Shown piece after piece: positions 1 through 5,325 of a stretch of 5,325 nucleotides of DNA. Location: positions 1 through 5,325 of the IMG/VR virus record IMGVR_UViG_2660238230_000001; one strand, written 5' to 3'. Below the pieces are notes generated by a model that saw nothing but the letters and a program-made list of their open reading frames with translations, was not told the origin of the DNA and did not search any database. The DNA is from a virus. Lineage: Duplodnaviria > Heunggongvirae > Uroviricota > Caudoviricetes. Each line of letters starts with the position of its first letter. The first letter of the stretch is position 1. The translations under genes and the position numbers were made by a program.

Positions 1-90
1 AGCCAGAGTAAATCCTGCTCACAAAAATTCGCCGGAGCGAACTCAACAAAATGCAGCGTATGTCCGGCAAAGGGGAGGGAGGTATGCGTA

Positions 91-219
91 GCCGGCTGCA
101 TTATTGGCCCGTGGGGGCTGCGACTGGTGACCGATGCCGAATCTATTCTGCACTTTGCCGAGATTGGGGTGGTGCTGATGCTGTTTATTATCGGCCTCGA
201 ACTCGATCCACAAAGGCTC
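91..219 (+). pseudogene. kefC: Internal fragment of kefC-like glutathione-regulated K+/H+ antiporter (N-terminal transmembrane region only, no start or stop)
   Basis: Plus-strand translation [43 protein letters not shown] matches the conserved N-terminal membrane segment of enterobacterial KefC as I recall it. Similarity stops abruptly on both sides (upstream reads ...GREVCV, downstream reads SRSSKRL). The six-frame ORF 127..585 fuses this fragment to antisense of phage gene R and is not a real gene. Confidence 0.6.
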
Positions 220-251
220 AGCCGGTCTTCAAAACGCTTAAACTCATTCAT
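220..251 (-). pseudogene. S: Probable 5' remnant (about 10 codons, [10 protein letters not shown]...) of P2-like tail completion / virion morphogenesis gene S, truncated at the junction with the kefC fragment
   Basis: ATG at 251-249 overlaps the last codon and stop of R (minus-strand ATGAATGA arrangement), the expected position for S in P2-like late operons. The frame stays open to the window edge only because it runs antisense through unrelated sequence. The S protein sequence itself was not recognised. Confidence 0.3.
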
Positions 252-711
252 CCCACTTGCTCACCAGTTCGCCATTGATATAAAGCTCCACCGGGCGGGT
301 GACCGGCTCCGGCGGCGGAGGTTCCGGGATATTCTTCACATGCAGCGCGCCGTCAACCTCACTGACCAGCGTGCGCTCGGTCAGCATCAGGCTGATGCTG
401 ATATCAAAGCTGCTGTCATTGTTGATGTCTGCATAAAACGTGAAGCCCTTTTTCTGGCCTTCGTCGGTGGTCATGATGTCGGGCTGATTTTCCCGCAGCC
501 ACGCCAGCACCGGCACAATGAGCAGGTCAAAATCACCGGTAAAGTCGGTCACAATCACATTGAGCGTGTAACGCTTTTCGAATGACATAGACGTCGCCAG
601 TGTGGAGGCAATACTCCCGTTATCCACGAATATCCGCAGCATCTCGGGACTGGTTTTCAGCACCGTGACGGCGTCAGTCAGCGCCCTGCGCAGGCTGTCG
701 GGTTTGAGCAT
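244..711 (-). CDS. R: P2-like tail completion protein R
   Basis: 155 aa ORF ([19 protein letters not shown]...[14 protein letters not shown]) matching my recollection of the phage P2 gpR family in length and sequence. ATG at 711-709 with AGGA about 8 nt upstream. Position immediately after lysB/lysC as in P2. Confidence 0.8.
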
Positions 712-964
712 CGTTTTCGTCCTGACAGTGTTTAATCATTTTTACCTGGCTGGCACAGCGTGCCAGCGCGTTCTCAAGCTGCCGGATATCAGCACTTAAA
801 TCGCCGTTCGTCTGCGGGTCACTGCCCGGCATCGGGCAAAGGCTCACTTTCGGGCAGGCGTTGGCGACAATCACTGGCGTCAGTGCAGGTCGGACGCTGG
901 TGCAACCGGCGCACAGCATCAGGCAGGTCAGCGCCATACCAGCGGCGAAAATCCTCGTTTTCAT
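674..964 (-). CDS. lysC: o-spanin (Rz1-like outer-membrane lipoprotein), P2 LysC-like
   Basis: 96 aa ORF starting MKTRIFAAGMALTCLMLCAGC: signal peptide with lipobox-like LCAG|C. Starts inside lysB in a different frame and extends about 145 nt beyond the lysB stop (overlapped spanin architecture). GAGG about 9 nt upstream of ATG at 964-962. Its 3' end overlaps the R start by 38 nt. Confidence 0.7.
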   Translation of the reverse strand: MKTRIFAAGMALTCLMLCAGCTSVRPALTPVIVANACPKVSLCPMPGSDPQTNGDLSADIRQLENALARCASQVKMIKHCQDENDAQTRQPAQGAD

Positions 965-1244
965 TCAGTAACCTCGTGATGGTTTTCTCGCGCTGTGCTT
1001 CACGTTTCGCGGCGTTCTCCAGTTCCTGACGCAGTGCCACCTGCGCCAGCTCGTTTTTGTCTGCCCTGGTAAGGGCAACATGAAGCTGATTTTTCAGCAT
1101 GGTGATGGTCGTCTGCTGACCGCTGGCGACGTTGTTCGCCCTGTCCAGCGAGGCGCGCAGGCTGGCGTTTTCATGCTTCGCCAGAAACAGACCTGTCACC
1201 GCCAGCGATAACAACACGACCAGCACAATCATCAGCTTTGACAT
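819..1244 (-). CDS. lysB: i-spanin (Rz-like inner-membrane spanin component), P2 LysB-like
   Basis: 141 aa ORF with an N-terminal transmembrane helix (MSKLMIVLVVLLSLAVTGLFLA) followed by a charged, coiled-coil-like periplasmic region. Contains the lysC start in another frame. ATG at 1244-1242 with a GAGGGG run upstream. Confidence 0.7.
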   Translation of the reverse strand: MSKLMIVLVVLLSLAVTGLFLAKHENASLRASLDRANNVASGQQTTITMLKNQLHVALTRADKNELAQVALRQELENAAKREAQREKTITRLLNENEDFRRWYGADLPDAVRRLHQRPTCTDASDCRQRLPESEPLPDAGQ

Positions 1245-1657
1245 GGTTCCCGCCCCTCAAGACGCTGACGACAGGCCGTACGTATCAGCCGGAAAAACAG
1301 CGACGCCACAAGATAAATCAGCGCGGTAAAAATCCACCCGGCAGCGACCAGCGAGATAAACGTCGCCACCATCACCACCAGACCCACCGCCCGTCTGCAC
1401 CACGTCACCGGCTGCAAAAACAGCGACGTGACAATCTTCACAGCCAGCGATTCCGGCGGCAGCTCCCGCCCGTAGCGTTCCAGCACATACTCAGTGGCAT
1501 ACACCCCGACACCACCGGCAACCGCACAGATAACCGTCGCCAGAATCGCCCAGGCGGCGACAAAACTGACGGCCACGCTCTGCGGGTAAATCAGGGACAG
1601 TGCCAGCATCAGCGCCAGCGACACGTTCAGCATCAGTGAAAGGGATAATTTCTTCAT
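1232..1657 (-). CDS. lysA: Multi-pass membrane protein, P2 LysA-like lysis timing / regulatory protein
   Basis: 141 aa hydrophobic ORF with several predicted TM segments, located between endolysin K and lysB as in P2. ATG at 1657-1655 with GGAG upstream. 3' end overlaps the lysB start by 13 nt. Confidence 0.6.
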   Translation of the reverse strand: MKKLSLSLMLNVSLALMLALSLIYPQSVAVSFVAAWAILATVICAVAGGVGVYATEYVLERYGRELPPESLAVKIVTSLFLQPVTWCRRAVGLVVMVATFISLVAAGWIFTALIYLVASLFFRLIRTACRQRLEGREPCQS

Positions 1658-1671
1658 GGTGTTTACTCCGT

Positions 1672-2169
1672 TTAAGCCGGTACGCCGCCAGCGGTACGCC
1701 AGACGGTGACCAGTTTTTCCAGTGAATGCTCACGCTGACCGTAACCGGCACCCGGCAGGGACGCCCAGATATTGCGACAGCGTGAAATGGCGCGCTCAAT
1801 GCGTCCCGCCCGGATGTCATCCAGCGCACCGCGTTCGCGGATCAACTGAATGGCGAGTCTGTCCTGTGACAACGGACTGAAATCCGGCAGGGCAAGCTGT
1901 TTGCGGTAATGCGGCCAGAACAGGTAAAGCTGCTGATAGCGACCGGAGGCCGTGGATTTTTCACCGCGACGGTTAAACACCTTCGCCGGTCGGCCATGCG
2001 CGAACGGGTGGTCACTGTAGTCGGTGAAAATTTCCGGCTTCCCGTCCAGTCCGGTGACTATCACGTCATAGCCACGGTTTTTCGTCAGCGGATGGTTCGC
2101 CGTCCCTTCGGACACGGCCAGCATGTCGAGAAAGGCGGCGATATTCTGATGCGTGTTAATTACCGGCAT
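1672..2169 (-). CDS. K: Endolysin, lambda R / P2 K-type lytic transglycosylase (phage lysozyme family)
   Basis: 165 aa ORF with the hallmark motifs FLDML..SEGT, GYDVIV, FTDYSDHP, GRYQ, FSP.SQD and IWASLPGAGYGQ.EH shared with lambda R endolysin. Its ATG (2169-2167) overlaps the holin stop by 1 nt (TAATG on the minus strand). Confidence 0.9.
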   Translation of the reverse strand: MPVINTHQNIAAFLDMLAVSEGTANHPLTKNRGYDVIVTGLDGKPEIFTDYSDHPFAHGRPAKVFNRRGEKSTASGRYQQLYLFWPHYRKQLALPDFSPLSQDRLAIQLIRERGALDDIRAGRIERAISRCRNIWASLPGAGYGQREHSLEKLVTVWRTAGGVPA

Positions 2170-2450
2170 TACGGTTTCCCCCTGCCCTTAAAGCGGCGCT
2201 GAATGGCAATCTCAATCACCTGATAACCGGCGATACCCAGCATGGAGCCGATGCCGCACACCGCAGGCAATGACAGGTCAGGAAACTGCACCAGAACAAC
2301 ACCGGCAACCATCGAGACAAAACCACCGAGCAACATGCGTCCGATAAACAGACGCGGGGTGATGGGTTCACCACCGGCAAGCACCTTGCCGACAACAATC
2401 AGCACCCCAATCATGAAAAGCGACAGGACGCTTTTTTCTTCTGCTGTCAT
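2169..2450 (-). CDS. Y: Holin, P2 Y-like
   Basis: 93 aa small membrane protein with hydrophobic segments and a basic C-terminus (RRFKGRGKP), immediately upstream of and translationally coupled to the endolysin. GGGAG upstream of ATG at 2450-2448. Confidence 0.75.
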   Translation of the reverse strand: MTAEEKSVLSLFMIGVLIVVGKVLAGGEPITPRLFIGRMLLGGFVSMVAGVVLVQFPDLSLPAVCGIGSMLGIAGYQVIEIAIQRRFKGRGKP

Positions 2451-2453
2451 GCG

Positions 2454-2657
2454 TTACTCCCACAGATTGACAGTTTCAGCCACGGGCGCGGTCTGAACGT
2501 CGGGCAGTTCGACGGCGGTGCCGTGCGGCAGCACCGCGCCCAGTTCAGCCAGTCCCGGATTTGCGGCGAGCACGGCTTCGACCACGCCCTCAGTGCGCCC
2601 GTAATACCGGACACAAATGGCGTCGAGCGTGTCGCCCTGTAGCGCAAAGGTCTTCAT
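2454..2657 (-). CDS. X: P2-like tail protein X
   Basis: The six-frame ORF 2454..2726 has a plausible internal start giving a 67 aa product (MKTFALQGDTLDAICVRYYGRTEGVV...VNLWE), matching my recollection of the P2 gpX family. Its ATG (2657-2655) overlaps the L stop by 1 nt (TGATG on the minus strand). Confidence 0.75.
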   Translation of the reverse strand: MKTFALQGDTLDAICVRYYGRTEGVVEAVLAANPGLAELGAVLPHGTAVELPDVQTAPVAETVNLWE

Positions 2658-3166
2658 CAGATTTGACTCACGATGCAGCGTGGCTTGTCCTGGATGCGCG
2701 CCACTGCCCAGCGCATATCCCGCCACAGCTCATCAATGGTGCTGTCAATGCTGTCGGCCTTCTTGTCGCCTTTCGCACTGGCATCCACGCCGCGATAACG
2801 CTCATAAAGCGACGCGGTCGCCATCGCACACACGGCGCGCTCGTAGTAAAAAACTTTGATGCTTTCACCGTCGATGTCGTCCGCCGGGACGTCAGCCAGA
2901 CACGTAAAACCGGCGGCAATTTTCTGTTCGCGGTACTCGTACAGCTCCGCATTCGTTTCAGCCATGCCTGACTTGATGGCCTCACGCAGACGGGCAGGGG
3001 CGACGGTCTGCTCAAGGCGCATACGTTCCCGGACGCGCTTCGGGTCGATATCGGGAAAAAAGAACGTGTTTTTAATCACCGGCTCGTCGCCTGCCGGTTG
3101 CGGGATGACCACCGTACCCTCACCGGACACGGGAGCCTCCTTTCGCGGAATAATCAGCGTCATCAT
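2657..3166 (-). CDS. L: P2-like head completion/stabilization protein L
   Basis: The six-frame ORF 2657..3226 is trimmed to the ATG at 3166-3164, which has GAGG 6-9 nt upstream. This gives 169 aa (MMTLIIPRKEAPVSGEGTVVIP...PRCIVSQI), consistent with the P2 gpL family and position (M-L-X order). Confidence 0.8.
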   Translation of the reverse strand: MMTLIIPRKEAPVSGEGTVVIPQPAGDEPVIKNTFFFPDIDPKRVRERMRLEQTVAPARLREAIKSGMAETNAELYEYREQKIAAGFTCLADVPADDIDGESIKVFYYERAVCAMATASLYERYRGVDASAKGDKKADSIDSTIDELWRDMRWAVARIQDKPRCIVSQI

Positions 3167-3265
3167 GACTACCTCTGAAAAGTCGGGCGGTGGACGCCGG
3201 TACAGTGTCAGGTGATTCACCCTCACTGACCGGCGTGCCGCCCTGGCGCGGGGCGCATTCGGTTG

Positions 3266-4009
3266 TTAACTGGCTTTCTTTTTCGGGCGTCCACGTTTTG
3301 CCGGTGTCACGCTCCGGGTCTTACGCGGGGCGCAGGTGGCCGCTTTTGGCTGTGGCTCCGGCTTCGGTTTCAGCTCCCGCTCCAGTCGTTCAATCTCTTT
3401 TTTGACGCCTGCCTGACAGTCGAGCTGTGTCGCACGTTGCAGGTGCGCCAGCGCCCCTGCGGCATCACCAGCGTCACGCAGAAACAGACCGGTGATTTTG
3501 TGCAGCTTTGCGCGCACTTCATCAGGCATGTCAGCCGTGGCGGTCAGTTCGAGGGTGTCCGTCAGCAGGCGGGGATCCACAGACTCACCGGCAGCGTGGG
3601 CGCGCATGGCCGCGAGCGCCACCTCCTCGGTGAACATGTACGGCGGGGTGCGACGGTGTTTACCCGGCATGGTCAGACCGTACTTCAGGGCATAACGGGC
3701 AATCTCCAGCGCACCGGCAATATCGCCGGTATCCAGACGCCACAGCATGACCGTCATCAGAATGTCATCCTGTGCACCTTTGCCCTGCTCCAGCACGCCG
3801 TTCACCCACGGCAACCAGAACGGCAGCAGTTCGCGTTTTTTCGCGGCCTTCAGCTCTTTTGAATAAATTGCTTTCAGTGTGCGCTGGTCTGCGGCCAGCT
3901 TGACCAGCATCTGCTCATAGACAGTTGCATGTCGCAGCGGGGCGGCTTCCCGCTGCGCGGTCATCGCTGCCGAGACCCGCATCATGTGGCGCTGTGCGGG
4001 ACTCGTCAT
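3266..4009 (-). CDS. M: P2-like terminase small (endonuclease) subunit M
   Basis: 247 aa ORF with a basic C-terminal tail (KRGRPKKKAS), matching the P2 gpM family in size, sequence and position upstream of L. GGGAG about 8 nt upstream of ATG at 4009-4007, inside the end of the preceding N-like frame. Confidence 0.85.
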   Translation of the reverse strand: MTSPAQRHMMRVSAAMTAQREAAPLRHATVYEQMLVKLAADQRTLKAIYSKELKAAKKRELLPFWLPWVNGVLEQGKGAQDDILMTVMLWRLDTGDIAGALEIARYALKYGLTMPGKHRRTPPYMFTEEVALAAMRAHAAGESVDPRLLTDTLELTATADMPDEVRAKLHKITGLFLRDAGDAAGALAHLQRATQLDCQAGVKKEIERLERELKPKPEPQPKAATCAPRKTRSVTPAKRGRPKKKAS

Positions 4010-4012
4010 CGG

Positions 4013-4100
4013 TTACGCTCCCGGCTCTGCGGTCGCTTTAGCCGGTGTGGAGAAATCACCGACCTTAATTTTTTCCACCAGACAACCGGCGGCGTAGTCC
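4013..4100 (-). pseudogene. N: 3'-terminal remnant (about 28 codons plus stop) of a P2-like major capsid gene N, truncated at the junction with 16S rDNA
   Basis: Open minus-strand frame ...DYAAGCLVEKIKVGDFSTPAKATAEPGA ending at TAA (4015-4013), 3 nt before the M start, which is the expected position for N. Assigned by position; the peptide itself is not verified from memory. Confidence 0.4.
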
Positions 4101-4246
4101 TCCTCCATCAGGCAGTTTCCCAGACATTACTCACCCGTCCGCCACTCGTCAGCGAAGCAGCAAGCTGCTTCCTGTTACCGTTCGACTTGCATGTGTTAGG
4201 CCTGCCGCCAGCGTTCAATCTGAGCCATGATCAAACTCTTCAATTT
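4101..4246 (-). rRNA. rrs: 16S rRNA gene, 5' end only (about the first 146 nt), truncated
   Basis: Minus-strand sequence from 4246 reads AAATTGAAGAGTTTGATCATGGCTCAGATTGAACGCTGGCGGCAGGCCTAACACATGCAAGTCGAACGG...GGGAAACTGCCTGATGGAGG, the canonical enterobacterial 16S 5' end. Similarity stops near 4100, where GGGGATAACTACTGG is expected but phage sequence follows. Confidence 0.9.
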
Positions 4247-4377
4247 AAAAGTTTGATGCTCAAAGAATTAAACTTCGTAATGAATTACGTGTTCACTCTT
4301 GAGACTTGGTATTCATTTTTCGTCTTGCGACGTTAAGAATCCGTATCTTCGAGTGCCCACACAGATTGTCTGATAAA

Positions 4378-4390
4378 TTGTTAAAGAGCA
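4378..4390 (-). promoter_or_regulatory. rrn leader boxA antitermination element
   Basis: Minus-strand TGCTCTTTAACAA, the conserved rrn boxA motif, within the leader between the P2 promoter and the mature 16S 5' end. Confidence 0.7.
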
Positions 4391-4427
4391 GTGCCGCTTC
4401 GCTTTTTCTCAGCGGCGCGGGGTGTGC

Positions 4428-4455
4428 ATAATACGCTTTCCCGCTACAGAGTCAA
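4428..4455 (-). promoter_or_regulatory. rRNA operon P2 promoter (sigma70)
   Basis: Minus-strand -35 TTGACT (4455-4450) and -10 TATTAT (4433-4428) with a 16 nt spacer, matching the rrnB P2 context GCTTGACTCTGTAGCGGGAA.GCGTATTATGC. Confidence 0.75.
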
Positions 4456-4545
4456 GCATTTTTTTGCTTTTCTCTGTTGAGATTCTCAGGAGAACCCCGC
4501 TGACCCGGCGGCGTGTTTGCCGTTGTTCCGTGTCAGTGGTGGCGC

Positions 4546-4573
4546 ATTATAGGGAGTTATTCCGGCCTGACAA
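4546..4573 (-). promoter_or_regulatory. rRNA operon P1 promoter (sigma70)
   Basis: Minus-strand -35 TTGTCA (4573-4568) and -10 TATAAT (4551-4546) with a 16 nt spacer, followed by the GCGC discriminator. Matches rrnB P1 (CTCTTGTCAGGCCGGAATAACTCCCTATAATGCGCCACC). Confidence 0.8.
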
Positions 4574-4574
4574 G

Positions 4575-4598
4575 AGGAAATTTAAAATAATTTTCTGA
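4575..4598 (-). promoter_or_regulatory. UP element of rrn P1
   Basis: Minus-strand A/T-rich TCAGAAAATTATTTTAAATTTCCT immediately upstream of the P1 -35 hexamer, matching the classic rrnB P1 UP element. Confidence 0.7.
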
Positions 4599-4618
4599 CC
4601 GCGCAACATTCAACCAAA

Positions 4619-4711
4619 TCAACCTAAAACTGCCAGTTTTTCGAGCGTTCCGAAGCCGTAACGCTGTAAAACGGGCAATAATTGTTCAGCTTCTGTCGTC
4701 ATTGCCAGCAC
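4619..4711 (-). pseudogene. murI: 3' end (about 30 codons plus stop) of glutamate racemase gene murI
   Basis: Minus-strand translation ...[28 protein letters not shown] matches the MurI C-terminus, and murI is the natural upstream neighbour of rrsB. Similarity to MurI is lost above about 4711, so the six-frame ORF 4619..4915 is chimeric. Confidence 0.65.
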
Positions 4712-4820
4712 CAGCCCTTTTTTCAGATTGAACTCTTCGGCTTTAATGCCCATCTTGCGCTCTTTCAACTGCCCGGCTCGAGTTACAATCCCTACGCCAA
4801 TCAGCGCCACCAGAACGCCG

Positions 4821-4985
4821 CAGACCTTCGTTGTTGGCAAAGTTCGCCAGTACAATCTGCCCCAGCAGTTGGGTTTGTTCGTTGGAATAGTTGCCGACAA
4901 CCGTACCGTCATCATTGATTTGATAACTCACCAGATCGCCCGGTTTGTAGCCGTTCTGGGTGGTTGCCACAATATTGTTAGCGCC
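4821..4985 (-). pseudogene. flgE: Internal fragment (about 55 codons) of flagellar hook protein gene flgE
   Basis: Minus-strand translation [55 protein letters not shown] matches the C-proximal conserved region of enterobacterial FlgE. It has no start and no native C-terminus; flanking sequence on both sides is unrelated to FlgE. Confidence 0.65.
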
Positions 4986-5211
4986 TAGAGCAAACTGAAG
5001 GGGTAACCTAAGCCGAGGTTAATTAATAGCGACTGTAAAAAGTAGAACGCAGTCCACGTGCTAAATACCCGGCTACGGGTAACAAGCGATTCTTTGAGGG
5101 TTAAATTCATATGCCACTATCGTAACAAACGCCATGTGCTTACCCGGGCGTCAAGGGTCAATCCCTGCAAGAGTGCGTGAAGAGGGCACGCCGCACAGCC
5201 CGTCACGCTAC

Positions 5212-5325
5212 CTATTCGTCGATGATTGACTCGAATCCGCCATAGATCATTCGCTTGCCGTCAAACGGCATGGACTCGCCGAACTCTTTCATCCGTGGGT
5301 CCGACATCATCTTTTGATTAGCAGC
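5212..5325 (-). CDS. 3' end of an unidentified ORF running off the window edge (...AANQKMMSDPRMKEFGESMPFDGKRMIYGGFESIIDE*)
   Basis: Open minus-strand frame of 37 codons ending at TAG (5214-5212) with enterobacterial-like codon usage. Product not recognised. May be another fragment rather than an intact gene. Confidence 0.3.
   Translation of the reverse strand, partial: AANQKMMSDPRMKEFGESMPFDGKRMIYGGFESIIDE

What the first reader, a model, noticed from the sequence alone, without database searches (positions are those of the whole stretch)
205..255. Second breakpoint: kefC internal fragment abuts the first ~10 codons of phage gene S
KefC-like coding sequence on the plus strand ends at about 219 (after ...LELDPQRL). 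From 251 down to about 220 the minus strand carries an ATG that overlaps the R stop in the typical P2 R/S arrangement (ATGAATGA). The rest of S is absent. The minus-strand frame nevertheless stays open to position 3, so gene callers would report a spurious chimeric ORF here.
Basis: partly seen in the sequence, partly recalled or inferred. Interest (0 to 1): 0.45.

Follow-up and report, generated by a model that had tools for sequence, protein, structure and literature searches.

The report
Chimeric contig junction: kefC fragment/P2 S
The kefC-to-phage-S junction is really in the sequence, but it is one of seven arbitrary joins in a small patchwork contig of a fragmented draft assembly, so it is most likely a sequencing or assembly artefact.

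Summary
A 130-bp internal piece of kefC (window 89-218, KefC residues 36/37-79) abuts, on the other strand, the first 11 codons of P2 gene S (251-219). The S ATG overlaps the R stop as ATGAATGA. The minus-strand frame 251-3 has no stop.

The window is the entire 5,325-bp contig CDRN01001828.1 of assembly GCA_000944855.1. It is a patchwork of eight pieces: entD | kefC | 3.9 kb of a P2-like prophage (S start to N 3' end) | 16S-leader-murI | rhaT | flgE | opgE | ybaA. The host pieces are 91-606 bp, come from distant chromosomal sites, and are joined with 0-4 bp of overlap.

None of the three junctions I searched for, including this one, occurs elsewhere. No single place in 5,426 complete E. coli genomes spans the window or its parts beyond single segments. 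The junction strings are absent from the species-representative genomes, JGI metagenomes or IMG/VR that each was scanned against.

Window 302-4036 is 100% identical to intact prophages elsewhere. Three host pieces carry six private mismatches, all transversions, which looks like base-call error.

Best reading: a library or assembly chimera, confidence about 0.8. A real in-vivo multi-fragment end-joining event is not excluded, at about 0.07. Interest is low.

The parts
1..91 (-). Internal fragment of entD (enterobactin synthase subunit), cut by the contig end. One private mismatch (T>G at 37).
   Evidence: 98.9% over 1-91, entD in 5,415 genomes.
89..218 (+). Internal fragment of kefC, codons about 36-79 of 620. 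No start and no stop. Two private transversions (93 A>C, 168 C>G), both third-codon-position and synonymous by my reading of the frame.
218..219 (.). Junction J2, the finding: kefC | P2 S. Overlap is 0-1 bp (T218 fits both parents). No repeat, IS end, tRNA or att-like sequence.
   Evidence: (flank comparison with the closest intact prophage).
219..251 (-). First 11 codons of P2-family tail-completion gene S ([11 protein letters not shown]). The ATG overlaps the R stop (ATGAATGA, 251-244).
3..251 (-). Stop-free chimeric frame: S codons 1-11, then antisense kefC, then entD in its sense strand (reading frame not checked), running off the contig end. Not a gene.
   Evidence: 83 codons, no stop; no Pfam hit; not called on record.
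244..711 (-). Intact P2 gene R (tail completion protein, 155 aa).
   Evidence: PF06891, E=1e-44; the exact protein is on 182 contigs.
219..4103 (-). 3.9-kb piece of a P2-like (Peduovirus) prophage: S start, R, lysC, lysB, lysA, K, Y, X, L, M and the last ~30 codons of N. Both ends fall arbitrarily inside genes. Window 302-4036 is 100% identical to intact prophages elsewhere.
   Evidence: (98.1% to Peduovirus P2).
4102..4707 (-). Fragment holding 145 nt of the 16S rRNA 5' end, the rrn leader/promoter region and the murI 3' end. 100% identical to several E. coli genomes.
4704..4820 (-). Internal rhaT fragment. GCCA is shared with the murI piece at the join.
   Evidence: Pfam RhaT; 100% in strain E2865.
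4821..4985 (-). Internal flgE fragment (100%). Both of its joins have 0 bp overlap.
4986..5186 (-). opgE 5' end plus upstream region. Three private transversions (5059, 5146, 5163).
5185..5325 (-). ybaA fragment, cut by the contig end.

Best explanation
The junction at 218/219 is an artefactual join inside a chimeric contig. A real, well-sequenced 3.9-kb stretch of a P2-like prophage of an E. coli strain carries short, randomly broken pieces of the same kind of chromosome on both sides: entD and kefC on one side, and 16S/murI, rhaT, flgE, opgE and ybaA on the other.

The pieces were most likely joined outside the cell, in one of three ways:
- end-to-end ligation of small DNA fragments during library construction;
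- polymerase template switching during amplification;
- an assembler extending a contig end through low-coverage chimeric reads.

The result was then deposited as a small contig of a very fragmented draft (contig number 1828). Nothing functions here. S is represented by 11 codons, kefC by 44 codons, and the open minus-strand frame is accidental.

What is shown: the mosaic structure, the exact joins, the uniqueness of the junction, and the different mismatch quality of the phage core and the host pieces. What is inferred: that the joins arose in vitro or in silico and not in the cell.
For: 1. The window is the whole contig CDRN01001828.1 (5,325 bp) of GCA_000944855.1. Both contig ends lie inside short host fragments.
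2. There are eight segments and seven joins in 5.3 kb. The host pieces are 91-606 bp and internal to core genes. Their normal sites are far apart: kefC near 49 kb, ybaA near 523 kb, entD near 685 kb, opgE near 954 kb, rhaT near 4.10 Mb in K-12.
3. The joins have 3, 0-1, 2, 4, 0, 0 and 2 bp of overlap. That is far too short for homologous recombination or for a k-mer repeat collapse. No IS end, direct or inverted repeat, or tRNA lies at any join.
4. The P2 piece ends arbitrarily inside S and inside N, not at att or cos.
5. Uniqueness. No single place in 5,426 complete E. coli genomes covers 80% or more of window 1-700, 1-230 or 1-5325. The J2 31-mer is absent from IMG/VR, the GTDB species-representative genomes and JGI metagenomes. 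The J1 string is absent from the species-representative genomes and the J3 string from JGI metagenomes. The chimeric 98-aa ORF at 4619-4915 is a singleton cluster seen on one contig among about 15 billion proteins.
6. Intact prophages whose DNA is 100% identical to window 302-4036 continue from R into a full 150-aa S.
7. Sequence quality differs. P2 differences from a reference are 53 transitions to 17 transversions, which looks natural. The six mismatches in entD, kefC and opgE are all transversions (T>G, A>C, C>G, G>T, T>G, A>C); no complete genome matches these three pieces without mismatch, so at least most of the six are private (Fisher P=5e-4). Low-coverage base-call error fits this better than polymorphism does (my inference).
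8. E. coli lacks NHEJ. Its only reported end-joining route is rare and typically gives deletions (PMC4872102).
Against: - No reads, coverage or other contigs of the assembly could be examined, so the artefact is inferred and not shown.
- The summed junction overlap (11-12 bp) exceeds the 4.7 bp expected for random blunt joins (P about 0.01-0.02). J3 also sits in a 10-nt patch where both parents agree at 7 positions. That argues against pure blunt ligation. It fits template switching, which can happen in vitro but also in vivo.
- Standard de Bruijn assemblers normally prune low-coverage chimeric paths, so how this contig survived is unexplained.
- Four of the six private mismatches are synonymous or intergenic, by my reading of the annotated frames. 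That is also compatible with real variation.
- I could not establish what organism or sequencing technology the assembly represents.
Confidence: 0.8

Rival explanations
1. A real in-vivo complex rearrangement in an E. coli chromosome. After DNA breakage, a prophage fragment and several short chromosomal fragments were stitched together. This could happen by alternative, microhomology-assisted end-joining, or by repeated replicative template switching (MMBIR/FoSTeS-like). It would leave a dead patchwork locus beside intact copies of the genes.
For: - Junction overlaps of 0-4 bp are enriched over random expectation (P about 0.01-0.02).
- There is imperfect homology at J3.
- A mismatch lies 2 nt from J1.
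- A LigA-dependent end-joining route using microhomologies has been reported in E. coli (Chayot et al. 2010, cited in PMC4872102). By my recollection of that paper it can also capture foreign DNA.
Against: - Seven joins of pieces from across the chromosome within 5.3 kb would be unprecedented for E. coli.
- The reported end-joining route is rare and mainly gives deletions.
- No single place in 5,426 complete genomes spans any of the joins, and none of the three junction strings searched for occurs in any collection scanned for it.
- The contig begins and ends inside the small fragments and is never anchored in normal chromosome.
- The private mismatches are all transversions, and some lie far from the joins.
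Confidence: 0.07
2. A real DNA molecule that formed outside an E. coli chromosome. An example is a concatemer of fragmented E. coli DNA (contaminating or carrier DNA) present in, or integrated into, another organism's sample, where end-joining of many short fragments is normal.
For: - Multi-fragment concatenation with 0-4 bp overlaps is the usual signature of NHEJ/MMEJ-type joining of naked fragments (general knowledge).
- The identity of assembly GCA_000944855.1 could not be established. Its contig numbering reaches at least 1828.
- An assembler walks straight through such a patchwork more easily if the true E. coli flanks are not present at high depth (my inference).
Against: - Every base of the contig is E. 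coli or P2-like, with no non-E. coli flank.
- The strain is not K-12: rhaT differs from MG1655 and matches a bovine isolate, and it carries a wild-type P2-like prophage.
- Nothing positive points to a eukaryotic or other host.
Confidence: 0.05
3. An ordinary decayed (cryptic) P2-like prophage whose tail-gene side was deleted, so that kefC-derived DNA is the true chromosomal flank.
For: P2-like prophages are common in E. coli, and truncated remnants exist (general knowledge). The phage part itself is genuine.
Against: - The kefC piece is only 130 bp and is itself followed by an unrelated entD piece.
- kefC is intact at its normal site in essentially all genomes.
- The other prophage end is joined to a 16S fragment and four more unrelated pieces.
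- The phage genes show no decay: window 302-4036 is 100% identical to intact prophages.
Confidence: 0.02

Closest known systems
Chimeric inserts, reads or contigs in draft genome assemblies (fragment-to-fragment ligation, polymerase template switching, mis-joins)
   Same: Several unrelated genomic pieces are joined at arbitrary positions with little or no homology. The junctions are unique to one record. The contig is small, belongs to a highly fragmented assembly, and both its ends lie in the chimeric part. Apparent base-call errors are confined to the short pieces.
   Different: Seven joins in one contig is an unusually long chain. The slight excess of microhomology is not expected from simple blunt ligation. 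The responsible step (library, amplification or assembler) could not be identified.
Intact P2-family R-S tail-completion gene pair (Peduovirus; Pfam P2_Phage_GpR and Phage_tail_S)
   Same: R is complete. The S start codon overlaps the R stop as ATGAATGA. The first 11 S codons are identical to intact prophages.
   Different: S stops being S after codon 11. There is no Phage_tail_S domain, and V, W, J, I and the other downstream genes are absent.
Alternative end-joining (A-EJ) in E. coli (Chayot et al. 2010, as cited in PMC4872102)
   Same: It joins non-homologous ends using zero to a few bases of microhomology, without Ku/LigD.
   Different: As cited in PMC4872102, A-EJ events are deletions of up to 40 kb that use microhomologies as joining points. 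They are not chains of 100-600-bp pieces gathered from across the chromosome, and nothing here shows that the event occurred in a cell.
Microhomology-mediated template-switch rearrangements (MMBIR/FoSTeS) and multi-fragment insertions at breaks in eukaryotes
   Same: Several short templated segments from distant loci sit in one place. Overlaps are 0-4 bp, and occasional point changes lie near the joins.
   Different: These are described in eukaryotes and in E. coli amplification models, not as a seven-join patchwork in a natural E. coli isolate. This comparison rests on my own knowledge and was not tested here.

Membership tests
P2 gpS tail-completion protein (Pfam PF05069 Phage_tail_S) | About 150 aa with the Phage_tail_S domain | tested here: not met
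   The 83-aa translation has no Pfam hit at E<=1. Only residues 1-11 are identical to a 150-aa S homologue. Intact relatives carry PF05069.
P2 gpS tail-completion protein (Pfam PF05069 Phage_tail_S) | Start codon overlapping the stop of gene R (ATGAATGA), directly downstream of R | tested here: met
   Window 251-244. The same 8-nt overlap is present in L003 and L010.
KefC glutathione-gated K+ efflux protein (Pfam PF00999 Na_H_Exchanger) | Full-length transporter with a complete transmembrane domain and its own start and stop | tested here: not met
   Only residues 36-79 are present. The Pfam match covers profile positions 24-72 of 375. An entD piece lies upstream and phage DNA downstream.
Chimeric contig / library artefact | Several unrelated genomic segments joined at arbitrary points without homology or mobile-element ends | tested here: met
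   Eight segments and seven joins with 0-4 bp overlap. No repeats, IS ends or tRNA at the joins.
Chimeric contig / library artefact | Junctions not reproducible in independent genomes of the species | tested here: met
   No single place in 5,426 complete E. coli genomes spans them. The three junction strings searched for (J1, J2, J3) are absent from every public collection scanned for them. The chimeric ORF is a singleton.
Chimeric contig / library artefact | Junctions supported by few or low-quality reads, with intact copies of the same genes elsewhere in the same assembly | not testable with these tools
The only indirect hint is six private transversions confined to the short host pieces.
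In-vivo end-joining or template-switch rearrangement (A-EJ / MMBIR-like) | Microhomology at the joins above chance | tested here: inconclusive
   The focal join has 0-1 bp. The sum over seven joins is 11-12 bp against 4.7 expected, P about 0.01-0.02. In-vitro template switching would give the same signal.
In-vivo end-joining or template-switch rearrangement (A-EJ / MMBIR-like) | The rearranged locus is anchored in otherwise normal chromosome and present in the cell's genome | not testable with these tools
   The contig starts and ends inside the fragments. No flanking chromosome is available.
Cryptic prophage boundary (att, tRNA or IS-mediated truncation) | An attachment site, tRNA, IS element or duplicated target at the phage/host boundary | tested here: not met
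   No tRNA, no Rfam hit, no repeats at 218/219 or near 4100. The phage ends lie inside S and N.

The most novel reading that the evidence does not exclude
The patchwork is a genuine chromosomal locus of a natural E. coli isolate. On this reading, a shattering-and-rejoining or serial template-switch event captured a 3.9-kb prophage piece and seven short fragments of distant core genes, joined with 0-4 bp microhomology. It would be a bacterial counterpart of the complex multi-fragment insertions known from eukaryotic break repair.
Probability: 0.07. Interest if true: 0.6.

Novelty: not a real feature. Interest (0 to 1): 0.08.

Why it matters
If it is an artefact, as I think, its value is practical. 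The contig should not be read as evidence for a prophage insertion in kefC, a truncated S gene or a new fusion protein. It also shows that public draft assemblies contain chimeric contigs whose spurious ORFs enter protein databases: the 98-aa murI/rhaT/flgE ORF from this same contig is on record as a called gene.

If the patchwork were real, it would document multi-fragment end-joining or template switching in a wild E. coli. That would be a notable addition to what is known of bacterial break repair.

Tried and rejected
- Searched for any genome holding the junction: megablast and blastn against 5,426 complete E. coli genomes, and exact junction strings in IMG/VR, GTDB species representatives and JGI metagenomes. 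Nothing was found.
- Tried to identify the assembly in the literature (CDRN01, GCA_000944855). No paper was found, so organism, technology and project remain unknown.
- Looked for a biological boundary element: tRNA/tmRNA, Rfam families, direct and inverted repeats. None lies at any join. No common restriction-site motif was evident at the fragment ends, by eye.
- Considered homologous recombination or k-mer repeat collapse as the cause. Rejected because overlaps are at most 4 bp.
- Considered a decayed prophage remnant. Rejected because the phage part is undecayed and the 'host flank' is itself a chain of unrelated pieces.
- Considered natural polymorphism for the host-piece mismatches. The rhaT mismatch (4778) turned out to be natural, with a 100% match in strain E2865, and was removed from the count. 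The other six remain private and are all transversions.
Alignments were therefore made with DNA alignment and parsed afterwards.

Full report
**1. What is at 205-255**

On the plus strand, bases 89-218 are an internal piece of kefC. DNA identity to the best of 5,426 complete E. coli genomes is 98.5%. The translation matches KefC residues 36-79 (43/44 identical) and ends ...LELDPQRL. Pfam sees only positions 24-72 of the 375-position Na_H_Exchanger model. Alignment with a kefC reference shows identity through base 218 and none from 219.

On the minus strand, 251-219 reads [11 protein letters not shown]. This is identical to the first 11 residues of the 150-aa S homologue of an intact P2-like prophage. 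Beyond that, the 83-aa translation aligns only at noise level and has no Pfam hit.

The R gene (244-711, minus strand) is intact, with PF06891 at E=1e-44. The S ATG overlaps its stop as ATGAATGA, and intact prophages have the same 8-nt overlap.

The frame 251-3 has no stop, with a chance expectation of about 0.03. The join is at 218/219, T218 is compatible with both parents, and 11 codons of S are retained.

**2. The context changes the meaning**

An exact-protein look-up of a chimeric ORF elsewhere in the window showed that the window is the complete 5,325-bp contig CDRN01001828.1 of NCBI assembly GCA_000944855.1. The contig number implies a draft with at least about 1,800 contigs.

Segment-by-segment searches and alignments give this mosaic:

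| Window | Segment |
|---|---|
| 1-91 | entD |
| 89-218 | kefC |
| 219-4103 | P2-like prophage: S start, R, lysC, lysB, lysA, K, Y, X, L, M, last ~30 codons of N |
| 4102-4707 | 145 nt of 16S 5' end, rrn leader, murI 3' end |
| 4704-4820 | rhaT |
| 4821-4985 | flgE |
| 4986-5186 | opgE 5' end and upstream |
| 5185-5325 | ybaA |

In normal genomes these loci lie hundreds of kilobases to megabases apart (record coordinates). The finding is one of seven joins, and both contig ends lie inside short fragments.

**3. Anatomy of the joins**

Comparison with references gives these overlaps:

| Join | Segments | Overlap |
|---|---|---|
| J1 | entD / kefC | TAG, 3 bp |
| J2 | kefC / S | 0-1 bp |
| J3 | N / 16S | 2 bp exact, within a 10-nt patch where the parents agree at 7 positions |
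| J4 | murI / rhaT | GCCA, 4 bp |
| J5 | rhaT / flgE | 0 bp |
| J6 | flgE / opgE | 0 bp |
| J7 | opgE / ybaA | GG, 2 bp |

No tRNA, Rfam family, IS end or repeat lies at any join. The prophage piece ends inside S and inside N, not at att or cos.

These overlaps are far too short for homologous recombination or for a k-mer repeat collapse. Their sum (11-12 bp) is somewhat above the 4.7 bp expected for random blunt joins (P about 0.01-0.02). That hints at annealing or template switching, not pure blunt ligation.

**4. Uniqueness**

- No single place in the 5,426 complete E. coli genomes covers 80% or more of window 1-700, 1-230 or 1-5325. Every genome matches only the individual pieces.
- The J2 31-mer is absent from IMG/VR, from one genome per GTDB species and from the JGI metagenome contigs.
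- The J1 string is absent from the GTDB species-representative genomes, and the J3 string from the JGI metagenome contigs.
- The 98-aa chimeric ORF at 4619-4915 (murI end + rhaT + out-of-frame flgE) is a singleton cluster seen on this one contig among about 15 billion proteins.

**5. Quality contrast**

The phage proteins occur exactly in many other E. coli. Intact prophages from other assemblies are 100% identical to window 302-4036 and continue from R into a complete S, V, W, J and I.

Differences between the phage part and a more distant reference are 53 transitions to 17 transversions, which looks like natural divergence.

The short host pieces entD, kefC and opgE differ. They carry six mismatches, and no complete genome matches these three pieces without mismatch, so at least most of the six are private. 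All six are transversions: T>G, A>C, C>G, G>T, T>G, A>C (Fisher P=5e-4). A seventh mismatch, in rhaT, proved to be a natural variant and was excluded.

I read this as low-coverage base-call error in the contig's tips. That is an inference, and four of the six changes are synonymous or intergenic, which is also compatible with real variation.

**6. Explanation**

The most economical reading is a chimeric DNA molecule or a mis-join: a genuine 3.9-kb prophage stretch with short random genomic fragments attached on both sides. The joins would arise from fragment-to-fragment ligation or polymerase template switching during library preparation or amplification, or from an assembler extending contig ends through chimeric reads. 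The result was kept as a small contig in a poor draft.

E. coli has no NHEJ. Its reported alternative end-joining is described as generating large deletions (up to 40 kb) at microhomologies (PMC4872102, citing Chayot et al. 2010), not as chains of dispersed 100-600-bp pieces.

I put about 0.8 on the artefact. The alternatives are:
- about 0.07 on a real in-vivo multi-fragment joining or template-switch event;
- about 0.05 on a real concatemer formed outside an E. coli chromosome;
- about 0.02 on an ordinary decayed prophage, which the structure contradicts.

The artefact is inferred, not demonstrated.

**7.

Its sequence reading and its own refutation test hold. Its forecast that gene callers would report the chimeric S ORF is not borne out by the calls on record, which end at R. 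Those calls do include another chimeric ORF of the same contig. 'Breakpoint' should be read as 'chimera join'.

**8. Verdict**

The sequence feature is real and the biology is most likely not. Nothing functions here. Interest is low. The practical lesson is that patchwork contigs and their spurious ORFs sit in public databases.

Noticed in passing
window 4619-4915 (-): A 98-aa chimeric ORF (murI 3' end, then rhaT, then out-of-frame flgE) is on record as a called gene with a Pfam RhaT hit. It is a singleton cluster seen on this one contig, so a spurious protein from this contig did enter a protein collection.
   Followed up: yes
window 4098-4107: The join between P2 gene N and the 16S fragment lies in a 10-nt patch where the two parents agree at 7 positions. 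The window reads as a mosaic of both (C4100 and T4104 as in 16S, T4101 as in P2). This suggests annealing or template switching, not blunt ligation.
   Followed up: partly
window 37, 93, 168, 5059, 5146, 5163: Six mismatches to the best of 5,426 E. coli genomes, all transversions and confined to the entD, kefC and opgE pieces. The 606-bp 16S/murI piece and the flgE, rhaT and ybaA pieces have none, and neither does window 302-4036 of the phage part.
   Followed up: partly
window 4102-4246: 145 nt of the 16S rRNA 5' end, followed by the rrn leader and promoter region, is present but was not reported by Rfam at gathering thresholds. The fragment is probably too short.
   Followed up: no
window 283-301 and 4037-4052: The only differences from the closest intact prophages (L010, L013) cluster within about 80 bp of the two ends of the phage piece. 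Other references share the window's bases there, so this looks like normal mosaic variation among P2-like prophages, but the clustering near both ends is noted.
   Followed up: partly
L010 1-703 and L011 1-703: In the intact relatives of this prophage, a gene with a GmrSD_N domain lies next to the portal gene. It is probably anti-phage defence cargo at a variable P2 locus and lies outside the window.
   Followed up: no
window 674-964 (-) and 819-1244 (-): The P2 lysis cassette is intact. lysC (called as 52 aa on record, with a longer 96-aa ORF possible) is partly embedded in lysB and overlaps the start of R, as in annotated P2-like prophages.
   Followed up: no
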